DNA of 27,228 nucleotides from an uncultured bacterium (GTDB lineage: Bacteria; Patescibacteriota; Minisyncoccia; Phycocordibacterales; GWA1-40-21). Positions 10,319 to 21,675 of the stretch are shown one piece after another. The DNA is taken from the NCBI GenBank assembly GCA_903868205.1, contig CAIPUJ010000062.1:1-27228 (forward strand). Direction: 5' to 3'. Both the position numbers and the translations under genes were made by a program. The notes below the pieces were generated by a model. It was not told where the DNA came from. It worked only from the letters and a program-made list of their open reading frames with translations, and did no database searches. How positions within the stretch are numbered: the stretch's first letter is position 1; each line of letters begins with the position of its first letter.

Positions 10319-10370
10319 TTGGTTGTAGCCAAAAGGCCTTGTAAACATGAGGTTTTCTGGCTATGACCAA
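10319..10370 (+). promoter_or_regulatory. Long imperfect hairpin in the 5' leader of the DGR target gene
   Basis: TTGGTTGTAGCCA...AAGGCCTT-gtaaacat-GAGGTTTT...TGGCTATGACCAA, with several G.U pairs. Confidence 0.6.
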
Positions 10371-10422
10371 CACAGACGTTGATCAAGCAAATGGTAAAAA
10401 CCTAAAGAGAGGAAAAAGTACC

Positions 10423-11058
10423 ATGAGCGAACAAAAACAAGTAGGACAGTTACATGCGGTAGTTTTGCAAAATCTACCCGAAATGACAATTGAGCAGAGA
10501 CAGAAATGGATCAATGACCCGAAAGGAATGCAAGAATTTCTTTCTGGTTTGGTCGGTTCTAAATTCTCAGAGCATGATGGTGGAATTTATTTCACTGTCA
10601 CCTCAAATGGCTTCTCGGGTAAGGACTGGATTAAGCACTTCAACAAGAAGGGCGTGGAGATCGGCAATTATGCGAAACAGCTCCTTTTGTCCGAAGACTT
10701 CAAGCCAAGCAAAAAGGGCACTACTTCGCAAATCGTTGTCATCAAGGGAGAATTTTTCTCTGACAACGATCGTATCACGTCAAAGATTCGGGAGGAAGCC
10801 GATCGTCGTAATATGACCAAGCCGAATGCTGAAGTAGCGTGCCTCATTCGTGACTTGTTCACGGATGACGAGATTAAAGCGATGGGTCTTTCTTGGATTG
10901 TGACAATGCACGAACCCATCAAAGATTCTGACGGCGATCCTCACTTGCTCAGCACGAATCGGAACGGCAACAAGTCTTGGCTCAGCACGTACTACGGCCC
11001 GCCTGACCGCAGGTGGCATCGTGGGAGCGGTTTCGCCTTTGTTGCTCCGCAAGTATAA
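10423..11058 (+). CDS. DGR target (variable) protein, 211 aa; C-terminal VR, probably a C-type lectin-like fold
   Basis: C-terminal 42 codons match TR; ends W...GFAF-like. ATG 10423 has GAGAGGA 8 nt upstream and is preferred over ATG 10363, which lies inside the leader hairpin. Confidence 0.9.
   Translation: MSEQKQVGQLHAVVLQNLPEMTIEQRQKWINDPKGMQEFLSGLVGSKFSEHDGGIYFTVTSNGFSGKDWIKHFNKKGVEIGNYAKQLLLSEDFKPSKKGTTSQIVVIKGEFFSDNDRITSKIREEADRRNMTKPNAEVACLIRDLFTDDEIKAMGLSWIVTMHEPIKDSDGDPHLLSTNRNGNKSWLSTYYGPPDRRWHRGSGFAFVAPQV
10926..11050 (+). repeat. DGR variable repeat (VR)
   Basis: 125 bp, 114/125 identical to TR. Differences at 10942, 10967, 10985, 10997, 10999, 11000, 11008, 11009, 11017, 11024, 11027, each opposite a TR adenine. 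Confidence 0.98.
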
Positions 11059-11407: not shown

Positions 11408-11532
11408 TTCTGACGGCGATCCTAACTTGCTCAGCACGAATCGGAACGACAACAAGTCTTGGCTCAACACGTACTACGACAAGCCTGACAACAGGTGGAA
11501 TCGTGAGAACGGTTTCGCCTTTGTTGCTCCGC
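11408..11532 (+). ncRNA. DGR template repeat (TR)
   Basis: Non-coding copy of VR with 32 adenines, rich in AAC/AAT codons in the VR frame; the last 23 nt are adenine-free and identical to VR. Confidence 0.97.
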
Positions 11533-11546
11533 TAATTTTTTCATTT

Positions 11547-11568
11547 CTCTCCTACTTTGGTAGGAGAG
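11547..11568. other. Perfect hairpin 14 nt downstream of TR (spacer-region hairpin candidate)
   Basis: CTCTCCTAC-tttg-GTAGGAGAG, 9-bp stem; overlaps the avd stop codon on the minus strand. Confidence 0.7.
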
Positions 11569-11958
11569 TTTTGTTTTTAATTTGGTTATGCCAGCCTCCT
11601 AGCATTTTACCTATTTCATATAGCTTTTCTGAGATTTCGGCATATTTTTTATTATCTATCGATTTTATTTCCCATGCTATTTGCATAAGAATTTTTGCTG
11701 TATCTAGTTTCATTATTGCTCTTTTTATAAAAGGTAGTTTTTCTTCTGGTTTTAAAAAGCTAGCTATACTTATGTTTTCTATGACTTCAATAAATAGTGT
11801 ATCTATTTTTCCACCAAGGGAATATTTTGTCGTCTTTGGGAAGAGCGTTAAATATTGTTGCCAGACTTTATATAGGGAAATAAACTTTGATAAAATTGGT
11901 AAAACTGTCGGGGGGGGGGGGTATTATTAGTTTTGTGACTAGAAAAATTTGTGTTCAT
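11552..11958 (-). CDS. avd: Avd-like accessory protein (four-helix bundle), frameshifted at the G12 tract; not in the ORF track
   Basis: Minus-strand frame 11911->11552 translates PTVLPILSKFISLYKVWQQYLTLFPKTTKYSLGGKID...KLDTAKILMQIAWE...EIGKMLGGWHNQIKNKTLLPK*, with the Avd-like FPK..KYSLG and EIGKMLGGW motifs. The nearest ATG (11958) is in frame only with 10 or 13 G. Confidence 0.85.
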
Positions 11959-12933
11959 AAATACGATGATATCATTTCTGTCGAAAATTTACTCCTTGCG
12001 TGGAAAGAATTTTTAGTGGGTAAAACTAAAAAGACAGATGTACAAGAGTTTCAACTGAGACTTTCAGATAATATTTTTGATTTACAATATGATTTGAAAA
12101 ACAAGGTGTATTCACATAGCAAGTATTTTGCTTTTAAGGTGAATGACCCAAAACCGAGGGATATACATAAAGCCAGTGTGAGAGATAGATTACTTCACCA
12201 TGCTATTTATAGGATTTTATATCCTTTTTTCAATAATACTTTTATCGCCGATTCTTTTTCTTGCAGATTAGGGAAAGGGACTCACAGAGCAGTAAAAAGA
12301 TTGAATTATTTTTACGGAAAAGTCTCTAAGAATAATACGAAACAGGTTTGGGCTTTGAAATGTGATATAAGAAAGTTTTTTGACTCTATCAATCACGAAA
12401 TACTTTTGAGTATTTTAGACTCGTATATTGAGGATAAAGAAATTATGGAACTTTTAAGGAAAATAATATCTAGTTTTTATAAAAAAGAAGTTGGATGTGG
12501 TTTACCACTGGGGAATCTCACTTCACAACTTTTCGTAAATATTTATATGAATGTTTTTGATCAGTTTGTTAAGCATAAAATAAGGGCGAAGTACTATATA
12601 AGATATTCAGATGATTTTATTATTTTGTCAGATAACAAGAAGTGGCTTGAGGGTATTTTAATAGAGATAAATAGATTTCTCTCGGATAGATTAAAGTTAT
12701 CTTTACATCCAAATAAGGTTTATATCAAGACATTTTCTTCTGGTGTAGATTTTTTGGGCTGGATTAACTTTGCAGATTTTAAAATATTGAGAAAGAGTAC
12801 AAAAAAGAGAATGTTTAGGGGCCTTTTAGAAAAAGGATTTAAAAAAGAATCTGTACAATCTTATCTTGGGCTTTTGAGCCACGGGAATGAATATAAGACA
12901 AGAAGTAAAATCACGTCTTCTCTCATAGAATAA
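11887..12933 (+). CDS. DGR-class reverse transcriptase
   Basis: KPRDI...RDRLLHHA, SCRLGKGTH, LKCDIRKFFDSI, GLPLGNLTSQLF (DGR-type LGxxxSQ), RYSDD catalytic motif, GVDFLG. Start is either TTG 11887 or GTG 11935. Confidence 0.95.
   Translation: MIKLVKLSGGGGIISFVTRKICVHKYDDIISVENLLLAWKEFLVGKTKKTDVQEFQLRLSDNIFDLQYDLKNKVYSHSKYFAFKVNDPKPRDIHKASVRDRLLHHAIYRILYPFFNNTFIADSFSCRLGKGTHRAVKRLNYFYGKVSKNNTKQVWALKCDIRKFFDSINHEILLSILDSYIEDKEIMELLRKIISSFYKKEVGCGLPLGNLTSQLFVNIYMNVFDQFVKHKIRAKYYIRYSDDFIILSDNKKWLEGILIEINRFLSDRLKLSLHPNKVYIKTFSSGVDFLGWINFADFKILRKSTKKRMFRGLLEKGFKKESVQSYLGLLSHGNEYKTRSKITSSLIE
11910..11921. repeat. G12 homopolymer inside the avd/RT head-to-head overlap
   Basis: 12 consecutive G in an otherwise AT-rich sequence. 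Confidence 0.9.
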
Positions 12934-19145: not shown

Positions 19146-19730
19146 ATGCATCACATTTATACAACCGAAGCTATTCTTATAAAAAGTGTCCCGATAGGGG
19201 AGGCTAATCGTCTTTACTTTTTACTCACCAAAGATCTTGGGCTTATCAGAGCTACTGCACAGAGTGTAAGATCTCCAAAATCAAAACTAAACGGACACCT
19301 CCAGGTTTTTTGTCTTGTAAAAATTTCTGTTGTAAAAGGTAAAGATATTTGGCGTATTACTAGTGTTGAATCTATATTACAAAATGGCCTTATTAGACAC
19401 GTTGGCAAACTTTCTGTTTTACACAATATTTCAAAACTTTTTCTTAGACTTGTTCATGGAGAAGAAAAGAACGAGGAGCTTTTTGAGTCTGTAAAATCAG
19501 CCTATATCATCTGTCGTGACGCTGATTTGTCTCATGAGGAGCTTAGACTTACAGAAATACTTACCGTTCTTAGAATGATGCATTTTCTAGGGTATATCAA
19601 AAAAACAGAAGGCCTTTCTTCTTTTGCAGAGGGTACAAATATTACTCCAGAAATTTTAGAAAATTTTAGTAAAAACAAAAAACAAGCGATTCTAGAAATC
19701 AACAATGCACTTAAGGAAACGCACTTGTAA
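19146..19730 (+). CDS. recO: DNA repair protein RecO
   Basis: N-terminal OB-fold pattern T.AI.IKS..IGEANR....LTKDLGLI.A.AQSVR...SKL; 194 aa. Confidence 0.85.
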   Translation: MHHIYTTEAILIKSVPIGEANRLYFLLTKDLGLIRATAQSVRSPKSKLNGHLQVFCLVKISVVKGKDIWRITSVESILQNGLIRHVGKLSVLHNISKLFLRLVHGEEKNEELFESVKSAYIICRDADLSHEELRLTEILTVLRMMHFLGYIKKTEGLSSFAEGTNITPEILENFSKNKKQAILEINNALKETHL

Positions 19731-19753
19731 TTATGGTATAATATTTGGACATT

Positions 19754-21675
19754 ATGTTTTATCCAAACGAAGAAGAAAAAAGAAATAAGCTTGAAGATAT
19801 AAAGAAGAGTCTTTATTCTCGTGACAATGCCTCCATGTCTTCTAAAAGGAGACACTCTTTAGGTTCAGATATTGTAAAAGCAAATACAGAATGGTCTGAA
19901 GATGATTTAAAAAAGGAGTCTGATTTTAAACTACCTTACAAAAATATTTTTCTTGTAGCTATTATCTTTTTTGTTTTTGCTATAGGTTTTGCTTCTTACA
20001 AATTTTTCATTTCCGGGAATATGATTTCTGGTGATAATGTAGATATTATTATTCGTGGACCAGTATCTATCGCTGGTGGGGAAGTATTGCCACTTGATGT
20101 TGAAGTAAAGAACAAAAACAATGTGGATTTGAAAGTTGTAGATCTTAAAATACTGTATCCAGATGGTACAAGAAGCCCAGAAGATCTTTCAGCGCCTCTC
20201 ATAAGATACAGTGACCTTTTAGGCGATATAAATACAGGCAAAAGTGTTAACGTCTATTAAAATCTGTTTTATTTGGTGAGGAAAATGTAAAAAAGGAGGT
20301 AAAATTTACCGTTGAGTATAGAGTCCCTGGTTCTAATGCTATTTTTTATAAAGAAAAAGTTTACACTGTTCTTATAAGTTCATCTCCTATCAATATGAAA
20401 GTCCTTGGGGTGGGCGAGATTAGCGCCAATCAAAAAACAGATTTTACTATTGAGATAGAATCAAATTCTTTGTCTGTAATTAATAATCTTATTTTAAAGG
20501 CGGATTATCCTTTTGGTTTTGATTATATTTCTGCCGCACCGAAACCAAGTTCTGTTGATAATAGTATTTGGACTATAGGTGATCTTGAACCTGGAGCGAA
20601 GAGGACGATTAAACTTTCTGGTTCTGTAAATGGACAAGATGGCGAAGAAAGAGTTTTTAAATTCACTGTTGGTACACCAGATAAGCTAGATGACAAGACA
20701 ATAAACACGGCTTTTTCAGTTTATACAGCCAATGTTTCAATTAAAAAACCTTTTCTTGGTGTTAATTTATTTATAAATGGAGATTCAGCTAAAGAAGTTG
20801 TTGTTAATAGTGGAAGTAAGATAAGTGCTGATTTATCATGGCAAAATAATTTGGTAAGTAATGTTTATGATGTATCGATAAAAGTTAAGCTCAGTGGTCC
20901 GATTTTGGATAAAACTACAGTTTATACCGAGCAAGGTTTTTATAATTCATCAGACAATACAATTACTTTTGATAAACAAAAAGATAAAGCTTTTGCTTTA
21001 GTAGAACCAGGGTATCAGGGTGAAACAGGTTTTGTTTTTTCATTGTTTGGTCCTCAGTCTCAGACCGGATTATCATTTAATAATCCAGAAGTTGGTATGG
21101 ATATAAGTGTCTTTGGTAATCGTGTAGAGGGAAGTGGGGTTTCTCAGGAACTTCTTTATTCAGCTTCTAAAAAGATAAAGGTTGCCTCAGTCCTCAGACT
21201 TACTTTTCGTGGTCTTAGGTCTCTTGGACCTTTTGCAAATACTGGCCCTGTGCCTCAAGTTGCCGAACAGGAAACTACATATACTGTTACATGGTCTGCT
21301 ACAAATTATATAAATGATGTAAACAATGCAAAGGTTGTCGCCGTTTTGCCGGCTTATGTTAAATGGAACGAACTTACAAGTCCTTCTATTGAAAAGCTTG
21401 ATTATAATTCTTCAACAAATGAGGTAACTTGGAATATCGGAGGAATAAAAGCAGGAACAGGATTAACTTATTATCCAAGAGAGGTTTCATTTAATCTTTC
21501 TTTTACACCAAGCTTAAGTCAGGTTGGCGAGGCACCAGAAATTTTGGGGCAAGCTACAATTACTGGTACAGATTCATTTACGAATACTGAGGTTGGTGAG
21601 ACAAAAGCCCATGTAACTACAGAGATTGTGACAGATCCAAATTATGAGCCTGGCAAGGGTAAAGTTTCCCAATAA
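19754..21675 (+). pseudogene. Large single-pass membrane protein with beta-rich Ig-like/DUF11-like repeats, split by a frameshift near 20251-20257
   Basis: The first frame (with a TM helix) stops at 20258-20260. The second frame is open from 20251 (KSVLFGEENVKKEVKFTVEYRVPGSNAIF...) through ATG 20395 to 21675. Adding one base joins them into ~640 aa. Confidence 0.75.

What the first reader, a model, noticed from the sequence alone, without database searches (positions are those of the whole stretch)
11910..11921. G12 tract could be a phase-variable ON/OFF switch for the DGR
With 12 G, the avd frame has an in-frame TAA (11926-11924) just upstream and no start codon, so Avd is OFF. With 10 or 13 G, ATG 11958 reads MNTNFSSHKTNNTPPP(P)TVLPIL... 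into the full gene, so Avd is ON. The same tract lies in the RT frame if RT starts at TTG 11887 (in frame at 12 G, out of frame at 10 or 13), but not if RT starts at GTG 11935. Avd is required for mutagenic retrohoming (established for BPP-1), so slippage would let only a subpopulation diversify. Caveat: homopolymer length is error-prone and two other single-base frameshifts occur in this window.
Basis: partly seen in the sequence, partly recalled or inferred. Interest (0 to 1): 0.75.

Follow-up and report, generated by a model that had tools for sequence, protein, structure and literature searches.

The report
Slippery G-run gating a DGR
A run of twelve G's breaks the reading frame of the helper gene (avd) of a targeted-mutation machine (a diversity-generating retroelement) in an ultra-small lake bacterium, and because about 95% of 160 related elements keep a slippage-prone repeat at this spot, it is most likely a built-in random on/off switch for self-directed hypermutation, although switching itself was not observed here.

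Summary
G12 lies at 11910-11921 and is the longest G/C run in the 743-kb genome. At 12 G, avd (minus strand) has no usable start. ATG 11958 comes into frame at 10 or 13 G.

- 153 of 160 homologous Patescibacteria loci carry a simple repeat at this codon position (C6-C14, or units of 2, 4 or 7 nt, never 3n).
- The frame class follows run length.
- Only 30 of 88 scorable loci are in frame, yet all 58 out-of-frame loci keep an intact avd body.
- One near-identical set of three loci differs by one C (7, 7 and 6), which would change the frame.
- No MutS/MutL domain hit was found in the genome.

RT starts at GTG 11935, not TTG 11887, so the run is not in the RT frame. It lies in a promoter-like spacer of RT (TTGGTA-N20-TATTAT-N7-GTG). 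Five Lcl_C surface-protein genes in this genome have the same layout, so RT transcription may be gated too.

Read-level tract lengths could not be obtained, because Logan contigs break at the run. G12 could therefore be miscounted. I found no paper describing this. This scan has noted the same switch before in at least 104 other genomes.

The parts
11910..11921 (.). G12 (+) / C12 (-) homopolymer. This is the proposed slipped-strand switch. It covers codons 13-16 of avd on the minus strand and lies 13 nt upstream of the RT start on the plus strand.
   Evidence: A homologous run or other simple repeat is present in 153 of 160 loci.
11552..11958 (-). avd (bAvd-like four-helix-bundle accessory protein). 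The head is 11958-11922 and the body is 11923-11552. They are out of frame at 12 C and in frame at 10 or 13 C.
11956..11958 (-). Proposed avd start codon ATG. It is the reverse complement of the conserved RT His8 codon.
   Evidence: An ATG is at the homologous place in 89 of 127 loci, and the frame from it is open up to the run in 88 of 89.
11966..11974 (-). TG-A-TATCAT, an extended -10-like box 7 nt before ATG 11958. It predicts a leaderless avd mRNA.
   Evidence: Read from the sequence. TAnnnT is at this offset in 59 of 89 homologues. This is inferred; the transcription start was not mapped.
11924..11926 (-). In-frame TAA that closes the avd body frame just upstream of the run.
11935..12933 (+). 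DGR reverse transcriptase, starting at GTG 11935.
   Evidence: RVT_1 at 1.5e-26. Start position by homology.
11922..11927 (+). TATTAT, a -10-like hexamer abutting the run, 7 nt before the RT start.
   Evidence: TAnnnT abuts the run in 45 of 137 loci, against 4.5% background. The RT start lies 13 nt after the run in 29 loci.
11896..11901 (+). TTGGTA, a -35-like hexamer (reverse complement of the Avd Leu-Pro codons). The spacer to TATTAT is 20 bp at G12, 18 bp at G10 and 17 bp at G9.
   Evidence: Weak: the hexamer is also constrained by the Avd coding sequence.
11408..11532 (+). Template repeat (TR).
10926..11050 (+). Variable repeat (VR) at the 3' end of the target gene.
10363..11058 (+). DGR target gene (231 aa, no Pfam hit).
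11547..11568 (+). GC-rich hairpin plus T-run just after TR, overlapping the avd stop. It is terminator-like on the + strand. If it terminates the TR transcript, RT would need its own promoter.

Best explanation
The G/C run is a contingency-type simple sequence repeat built into the 5' coding end of avd in the Patescibacteria clade of DGRs, where avd is antisense and head-to-head with RT.

Proposed mechanism, step by step:
1. avd mRNA is probably leaderless and starts at ATG 11958.
2. The ribosome reads 12 codons and then enters the C-run.
3. At C10 or C13 it continues into the Avd four-helix bundle (ON). At C12, the assembled state, and also at C9 or C11, it terminates after a short peptide (OFF).
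4. Replication slippage changes the run length by one or more bases at high frequency. The genome shows no MutS or MutL hit, which would favour this.
5. A population would therefore always hold a minority of cells in the other state.
6. The DGR reverse transcriptase of the Bordetella phage model needs Avd for cDNA synthesis, so only ON cells would diversify the target protein.

The same run also lies between a -35-like and a -10-like box of a probably leaderless RT promoter. The spacer is 20 bp at G12 and 18 bp at G10. G10 would therefore turn on both genes, and G12 would weaken or silence both.

Shown here: the sequence layout, family-wide conservation of the repeat, the link between run length and frame, and intact avd bodies in out-of-frame loci.

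Inferred: slippage in this population, the transcription starts, dependence of this RT on Avd, and the effect on VR diversification.
For: 1. The run is unique in the window and the longest in the genome, and long G/C runs are in excess genome-wide.
2. The Avd N-terminus in homologues is M-x(4-20)-T-PPP-xx-LPVL, with the two central prolines conserved in at least 90% of sequences. At the DNA level this is a pure C-run in 145 of 160 loci from different species. Length counts are 6:5, 7:14, 8:14, 9:37, 10:49, 11:19, 12:3, 13:3, 14:1.
3. Eight loci have other repeats at the same spot: (AG)7, (AG)11, (AG)15, (GA)6, (CA)8, (CA)12, (GCCA)10 and (AGCAATC)11. All have unit lengths not divisible by 3. 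These are not prone to homopolymer sequencing error.
4. With the avd start defined by homology, 30 of 88 loci are in frame, 38 are +1 and 20 are +2. Frame class follows run length: 14 of 20 C9 loci are ON, 22 of 32 C10 loci are +1, and 6 of 11 C11 loci are +2 (chi-square p 1.7e-5).
5. All 58 out-of-frame loci keep an avd body of at least 100 codons without stops and with full homology.
6. In near-identical loci (99.8% identical flanks) L013 and L099 have C7 (L013 was scored OFF). L106 has C6, the length that one search's frame analysis of L013 predicts to be in frame.
7. 8 of 10 loci from same-genus or same-order genomes have G9-G10.
8. No MutS_V or MutL domain hit was found in a genome that is 98% complete.
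9. Five Lcl_C genes of this genome carry TTGCCA-N8-G(8-10)-C-TATAAT-N7-ATG. The DGR run has the same layout, TTGGTA-N8-G12-TATTAT-N7-GTG.
10. The VR consensus is the same in the Logan contigs of runs X1, X2 and X4, at every mismatch position their contigs cover. All are from one study. This fits a mostly silent element, but the evidence is weak.
11. Requirement of Avd for cDNA synthesis is established knowledge from the BPP-1 system (PMC6182149).
Against: - No read-level length distribution exists for this organism. All Logan contigs of four runs end at or near the run, so G12 may be off by one or more bases, and heterogeneity is unproven.
- The in-frame share (34%) equals the random expectation of 1/3. 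A repeat whose length matters for something other than the avd frame would give the same figure.
- Four of five near-identical locus clusters show no length difference. For example, four loci from four different contig records all have C10.
- 59% of homologues have an in-frame TTG or GTG within 12 codons after the run that could serve as a run-independent start, although the window has none.
- The promoter boxes overlap coding sequence on the other strand, so their conservation is confounded.
- The loci are phylogenetically related, so the statistics overstate independence.
Confidence: 0.65

Rival explanations
1. Programmed recoding instead of, or on top of, DNA switching. The C-run would be a shifty site where tRNA-Pro slips (+1 at CCC-C, or -1 on C CCC CCC), or where RNA polymerase stutters. 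A low, steady amount of Avd would then be made whatever the DNA length, and the repeat would serve to throttle Avd rather than to switch it.
For: - The commonest state in assemblies is C10, one base too many (22 of 32 such loci). This is the state that a +1 slip on CCC-C would correct.
- Poly-proline stretches stall ribosomes, and CCC-C is a known +1 site (established knowledge, not tested here).
- Out-of-frame loci keep intact avd bodies.
- Four near-identical loci from four different contig records all have the OFF length C10.
Against: - All three frame classes occur, including 34% in frame. A programmed frameshift normally fixes one out-of-frame arrangement.
- (AG)n, (CA)n, (GCCA)10 and (AGCAATC)11 at the same spot are classic DNA-slippage repeats and are not ribosomal slip sites.
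- The window needs -1 or +2, not +1.
- No stimulatory structure was sought.
Confidence: 0.12
2. The repeat is selected only as part of the RT promoter or 5' region (spacer length or a G-rich element). Its passage through the avd head would be incidental, with Avd made from another start, so the avd frame would not be the switch.
For: - TAnnnT abuts the run in 45 of 137 loci against 4.5% background, and the RT start lies 13 nt after the run in 29 loci.
- The inferred spacer peaks at 17-19 bp, and run length correlates negatively with the distance to the -35-like box (Spearman -0.38, p 0.002).
- Other genes of this genome have the same layout.
- The in-frame share equals chance.
Against: - In several same-genus loci the RT start is about 35 nt from the run, with its own -10-like box further downstream, while the run still follows an avd ATG directly.
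- The ORF from the homologous avd ATG is open up to the run in 88 of 89 loci.
- The window has no other start for Avd.
- Spacer statistics are confounded by the Avd codons on the other strand.
Confidence: 0.1
3. Assembly or sequencing artefact at this locus. The true length would be 10 or 13, and avd would simply be intact in this organism.
For: - Coverage in the public runs is low, about 3-7x.
- No contig spans the run.
- Long G-runs are error-prone.
- Only 3 of the 145 related C-run loci have a 12-base run.
Against: - Out-of-frame lengths are the majority in 88 independent assemblies.
- Four near-identical loci from four different contig records reproduce the same OFF length.
- Even if the count were wrong, that would change only the present state of the switch, not its existence.
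Confidence: 0.1
4. avd is a decaying pseudogene and the DGR is dead.
For: There is no start codon in the avd body frame. The VR consensus is the same in runs X1, X2 and X4 of one study, at the mismatch positions their contigs cover.
Against: - The avd body is intact here and in all 58 out-of-frame homologues.
- RT is intact.
- TR and VR differ only at adenines.
- The only lesion is the length of the repeat.
Confidence: 0.03

Closest known systems
Intragenic poly-G/C contingency genes of Campylobacter jejuni, Neisseria and Haemophilus (for example gonococcal pgtA poly-G, PMC2193922; C. jejuni SSR genes, PMC8437040)
   Same: A homopolymer of 8 or more G/C in the 5' coding part of a gene. A length change of one base shifts the frame. 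The genome background has no MutS/MutL hit, and the same genome holds several such tracts.
   Different: The gated gene is not a surface or modification enzyme. It is the accessory protein of a reverse-transcriptase-based hypermutation system. The host is an uncultivated Patescibacteria bacterium. Switching has not been observed.
Phase-variable promoters with a repeat in the -35/-10 spacer, or in overlapping divergent promoters (N. meningitidis porA and opc, B. pertussis fim, H. influenzae hifA/hifB (TA)n). These comparisons rest on my own knowledge.
   Same: The run lies between -35-like and -10-like hexamers of RT, so its length sets the spacer (20 bp at G12). One repeat is shared by two head-to-head genes, as at hifA/hifB.
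   Different: Here the same repeat would act on transcription for one gene (RT) and on translation for the other (avd). The promoter itself is inferred only.
Bordetella phage BPP-1 DGR (bRT, bAvd, TR/VR; PMC6182149, PMC7826257)
   Same: A DGR-type RT, a bAvd-family protein, and a TR/VR pair with adenine-only differences.
   Different: The gene order here is target-TR-(avd antisense)-RT, with head-to-head overlap of avd and RT by 24 nt. BPP-1 has co-oriented avd-TR-RT and, to my knowledge, no repeat in avd. A second, co-oriented DGR in this same genome (contig C19) also lacks the repeat.
Contingency loci in phage genomes (PMC12633550, seen by abstract only)
   Same: Polymerase-slippage repeats used as bet-hedging outside classical pathogens.
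   Different: Different genes and hosts, and no link to retroelements.

Membership tests
SSR contingency locus (slipped-strand phase variation) | A simple repeat long enough to be hypermutable (about 7 or more for G/C) | tested here: met
   G12. Homologues mostly have 9-11.
SSR contingency locus (slipped-strand phase variation) | The repeat is placed so that a length change alters expression (5' coding region or promoter), with a unit length not divisible by 3 | tested here: met
   The run is in codons 13-16 of avd, with ON at 10 or 13 and OFF at 12. Units in homologues are 1, 2, 4 and 7. Frame class follows length.
SSR contingency locus (slipped-strand phase variation) | Length polymorphism within a population or between near-identical strains | tested here: inconclusive
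   No contig spans the run in four runs. One near-identical cluster differs (C7 against C6), and four clusters do not.
SSR contingency locus (slipped-strand phase variation) | Reversible, heritable ON/OFF expression at high frequency | not testable with these tools
   Needs cultures, reporters or deep reads.
Diversity-generating retroelement | DGR-type RT, a TR/VR pair with adenine-specific differences, and an Avd-type accessory gene | tested here: met
   RVT_1 at 1.5e-26 and bAvd at 44 bits against a cut-off of 40. All 11 mismatches are at TR adenines.
Phase-variable promoter (repeat in the -35/-10 spacer) | The repeat lies between functional -35 and -10 elements of a mapped promoter | tested here: inconclusive
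   The layout is TTGGTA-N20-TATTAT-N7-GTG. A -10-like box abuts the run in 45 of 137 loci against 4.5% background. Five other genes of this genome have the same layout. There is no transcription start data, and the boxes overlap avd codons.
Programmed ribosomal frameshift / transcriptional slippage site | One fixed out-of-frame arrangement conserved across homologues | tested here: not met
   All three frame classes occur: 30 in frame, 38 at +1 and 20 at +2.

The most novel reading that the evidence does not exclude
One repeat would work as a two-gene lock on a hypermutation engine. Its length would set both the reading frame of avd (translation) and the spacer of a leaderless RT promoter on the other strand (transcription). 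Only one length (G10 here) would turn on both, so a random mutator switch governs a targeted mutator. This would be two-tier bet-hedging that is standard equipment of DGRs in Patescibacteria.
Probability: 0.3. Interest if true: 0.85.

Novelty: new variant of a known kind. Interest (0 to 1): 0.68.

Why it matters
DGRs are the most extreme natural protein diversifiers, and how cells restrain them is largely unknown. A hard-wired stochastic switch would explain how tiny symbiotic bacteria, which carry many DGRs, limit the cost of self-mutagenesis while keeping a minority of cells diversifying. It would also mean that avd genes annotated as frameshifted or missing in hundreds of genomes are switch states and not defects. 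This matters for DGR surveys and for estimates of how many DGRs are active. The idea is directly testable, because the run and the VR lie about 900 bp apart and a single long read can link switch state to VR diversity.

Tried and rejected
- Read-level test. The four best public runs are held only as Logan contigs. None spans the run, so no length distribution could be obtained.
- An exact-flank pattern scan of metagenome contigs for other copies of this locus gave 0 hits.
- An exact look-up of the neighbouring ArgS protein gave 0 contigs.
- Contigs carrying the truncated Avd homologues P0013 and P0068 were uninformative. The P0013 locus has no repeat at all and is identical in 8 samples, and only one P0068 contig had DNA.
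- My first ON/OFF tally, using any upstream in-frame ATG, overcounted ON because the conserved RT motif creates chance ATGs on the avd strand. I replaced it with a homology-defined start.
- I considered the G-run as a Shine-Dalgarno site for RT and dropped the idea. Its distance to the RT start ranges from 7 to over 40 nt, and (AG)n or (CA)n repeats replace it in some loci.
- RT start at TTG 11887 was rejected.
- The 2017 Nature Microbiology survey of CPR DGRs could not be read under the PMC id I recalled for it. Absence from the literature is therefore judged only from five full-text searches and two papers.
- I checked for broken genes elsewhere in the window, as a sign of assembly error. 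Of six ORFs scanned against Pfam, only a possible RecO split at 19730/19745 turned up, and I did not pursue it.

Full report
**1. What is in the sequence**

The window holds a complete diversity-generating retroelement (DGR). The parts are:
- the target gene at 10363-11058 (+), with the VR at 10926-11050;
- the TR at 11408-11532;
- an antisense avd;
- a reverse transcriptase (RVT_1, E 1.5e-26) ending at 12933.

All 11 TR/VR differences are at TR adenines.

The finding itself is exact. Twelve G's occupy 11910-11921. No other G or C run in the window exceeds 6. It is also the longest run in the 743-kb, 34% GC genome.

On the minus strand the Avd body (bAvd PF22296, 44 bits against a cut-off of 40) is open from 11923 to its stop at 11554-11552. 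It is preceded by an in-frame TAA at 11926-11924, and it holds no ATG, GTG or TTG until residue 71. ATG 11958 reads MNTNFSSHKTNNTPPP and then leaves the frame. With 10 or 13 C it joins ...TVLPIL.

**2. The repeat is a family feature, not an accident of this contig**

A protein search found about 100 Avd relatives, all bAvd-like. The few that carry a source name are from Patescibacteria (CPR). Their N-termini read M-x(4-20)-T-PPP-xx-LPVL, with the two central prolines conserved in at least 90% of sequences.

I fetched 80 loci from species-representative genomes and 80 from metagenomes.
- At the DNA level the proline motif is a pure C-run in 145 of 160 loci. Length counts are 6:5, 7:14, 8:14, 9:37, 10:49, 11:19, 12:3, 13:3, 14:1. 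This holds even though the own genome, at least, is AT-rich (34% GC).
- Eight more loci have a different simple repeat at the same place: (AG)7, (AG)11, (AG)15, (GA)6, (CA)8, (CA)12, (GCCA)10 and (AGCAATC)11.
- Every unit length (1, 2, 4, 7) is indivisible by three.
- Only 7 loci have no repeat.
- In a search of 40 related genomes (24 same-genus, 16 same-order), 8 of the 10 fetched homologous loci have G9-G10, at about 60% RT identity.

Replacement of one repeat type by another at a fixed position is hard to explain by protein-level selection for prolines or by homopolymer sequencing error. It is the usual signature of a contingency locus.

**3. The run decides the avd frame**

The avd start can be fixed by homology. 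It is the ATG that is the reverse complement of a conserved His codon near the RT N-terminus (His8 here, 11956-11958).
- It is present in 89 of 127 scorable loci.
- The frame from it is open up to the run in 88 of 89.
- Relative to the Avd body, 30 loci are in frame, 38 carry one extra base and 20 carry two.
- The class follows run length. C9 is mostly in frame (14 of 20), C10 mostly +1 (22 of 32) and C11 mostly +2 (6 of 11). Chi-square is 27.3, p 1.7e-5. The loci are related, so this p-value is optimistic.
- All 58 out-of-frame loci keep an Avd body of at least 100 codons without stops and with full-length homology. These are not decaying pseudogenes.
- The in-frame share (34%) equals the random expectation. 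The consensus state of a population is therefore not held ON.
- The window belongs to the "+2" class. G10 would give NNTPPPTVLPIL, the family-typical product.

**4. Direct evidence for length change is thin**

The four best public runs (lake water, one study) are held only as Logan contigs at about 3-7x depth. All contigs stop at or near the run, at 11917, 11937, 11957 and 11978, and none spans it. This is compatible with heterogeneity but does not show it. It also means that the count of 12 cannot be verified.

Among my 160 loci there are five clusters with near-identical flanks.
- Four clusters show the same length. In one of them, loci from four different contig records all have C10, an OFF length.
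- One cluster differs: C7 in L013 and L099, and C6 in L106, at 99.8% flank identity. L013 was scored OFF, and the frame analysis predicts that C6 would be in frame.

Other attempts to find more copies of this locus failed.

The VR consensus is the same as in the window, at every mismatch position the contigs cover, in runs X1, X2 and X4. This fits a mostly silent element but is weak evidence, because contigs hide minor variants and the samples belong to one study.

**5. Context that favours slippage**

The genome is 98% complete by marker genes. It gives no hit to the MutS_V or MutL (DNA_mis_repair) domains, while the same searches ring in 11 of 14 control genomes. It also has an excess of long G/C runs.

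Five of these runs (G8-G10 on contigs C46, C98, C99 and twice on C103) sit in a repeated layout, TTGCCA-N8-G(n)-C-TATAAT-N7-ATG. They lie in front of paralogous signal-peptide proteins, two of which were checked and match the Lcl_C (DUF1566) domain. This is a repeat in a -35/-10 spacer of a leaderless promoter. The organism therefore appears to use G-runs as switches elsewhere too.

**6. Relation to RT**

Homology settles this. In relatives the RT ATG follows the run, most often by exactly 13 nt (29 loci). In 36 of 132 an in-frame stop lies at or after the run. GTG 11935 is also 13 nt after the run.

Those 13 nt are TATTAT plus 7 nt. A TAnnnT hexamer abuts the run in 45 of 137 loci against 4.5% background. 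Upstream, the reverse complement of the Avd Leu-Pro codons gives a -35-like nTGG(C/T)A. The inferred spacer peaks at 17-19 bp (43 of 60 loci), and run length correlates negatively with the distance to that box (Spearman -0.38, p 0.002).

In the window the layout is TTGGTA-N8-G12-TATTAT-N7-GTG, which mirrors the Lcl_C promoters. The spacer is 20 bp at G12 and 18 bp at G10. The run may therefore also tune RT transcription.

I hold this as a secondary, unproven layer for two reasons. The boxes are confounded by avd codons on the other strand. In several same-genus loci the RT start lies about 35 nt from the run, while the run still follows an avd ATG directly.

On the avd strand, TG-A-TATCAT lies 7 nt before ATG 11958, and TAnnnT is at that offset in 59 of 89 loci. 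This suggests a leaderless avd mRNA, which would tie translation to that ATG and hence to the run.

**7. Rivals**

- **Recoding** (a +1 slip of tRNA-Pro on CCC-C, a -1 slip, or RNA polymerase stuttering) could give leaky Avd from OFF alleles. It would explain why C10 (+1) is the commonest state. It does not explain the di-, tetra- and heptanucleotide repeats, nor the presence of all three frame classes.
- **A purely RT-directed role** is possible but fits the same-genus loci poorly.
- **A downstream start for Avd** (an in-frame TTG or GTG within 12 codons) exists in 59% of loci but not in the window, and it is almost never ATG.
- **A miscount of the run** would change the present state, not the existence of the switch.

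**8. Known or new**

SSR phase variation and DGRs are each well known. Five full-text searches and look-ups in two DGR papers (a review and a survey) found nothing that links a repeat to avd or RT of a DGR. The 2017 CPR DGR survey could not be read.

Earlier notes of this scan report the same switch in at least 104 other genomes, including the promoter-spacer idea. They are AI notes, not independent evidence, but my own tests agree with them.

A second DGR in this genome (contig C19) has the classical co-oriented avd-TR-RT order and lacks any repeat. The repeat therefore goes with the head-to-head clade.

**Verdict**

Switching in this population, the true run length and the functional consequence remain to be shown.

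Noticed in passing
Own genome contigs C46:2047-2056, C98:8580-8589, C99:9483-9490, C103:1068-1076 and C103:2613-2622 (loci L161, L162): Five G8-G10 runs sit in a repeated layout, TTGCCA-N8-G(n)-C-TATAAT-N7-ATG. They lie upstream of paralogous signal-peptide proteins; two were scanned and match the Lcl_C (DUF1566) domain (one above, one below the Pfam cut-off). They look like phase-variable leaderless promoters of surface proteins, with spacers of 17-19 bp.
   Followed up: partly
Own genome contig C101:7924-7931 (L163): A G8 run lies between TTGACT and TATAAT, upstream of a secreted protein with tandem Cys-rich repeats and no Pfam hit. This is another candidate promoter switch.
   Followed up: no
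Own genome contig C19:1-2250, and C103:1852-2211 (L161:1053-1412): There is a second DGR with the classical co-oriented order: an Lcl_C-like target, avd, an AAC-rich TR and an RT 35% identical to the window's. It has no G/C run longer than 5 in the first 2.5 kb of the contig. A related bAvd-like gene lies between two Lcl_C paralogues on C103, so the poly-G-promoter Lcl_C genes may be targets of that DGR.
   Followed up: partly
Whole genome G000: No hit to the MutS_V or MutL (DNA_mis_repair) Pfam domains in a genome that is 98% complete by markers. The organism may lack mismatch repair.
   Followed up: partly
window 11547-11568: A 9-bp GC-rich hairpin followed by a T-run lies 15 nt after TR and overlaps the avd stop codon. 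It is terminator-like on the + strand and could end the TR transcript before RT.
   Followed up: no
window 19146-19730 and 19745-20260: RecO_N is found only in the first ORF. The adjacent second ORF has no Pfam hit. This could be a split recO or two separate genes.
   Followed up: no
Own genome contigs C28:2616-2623, C28:3890-3898, C74:3221-3228 and C74:6631-6640: Four further G/C runs of 8-10 lie in contexts without a clear gene. Their role is unknown.
   Followed up: no
L064 and L080 (homologous loci): (GCCA)10 and (AGCAATC)11 repeats replace the C-run in the avd head. L080 reads in frame through 11 heptamer units, as a 25-residue repetitive peptide.
   Followed up: partly
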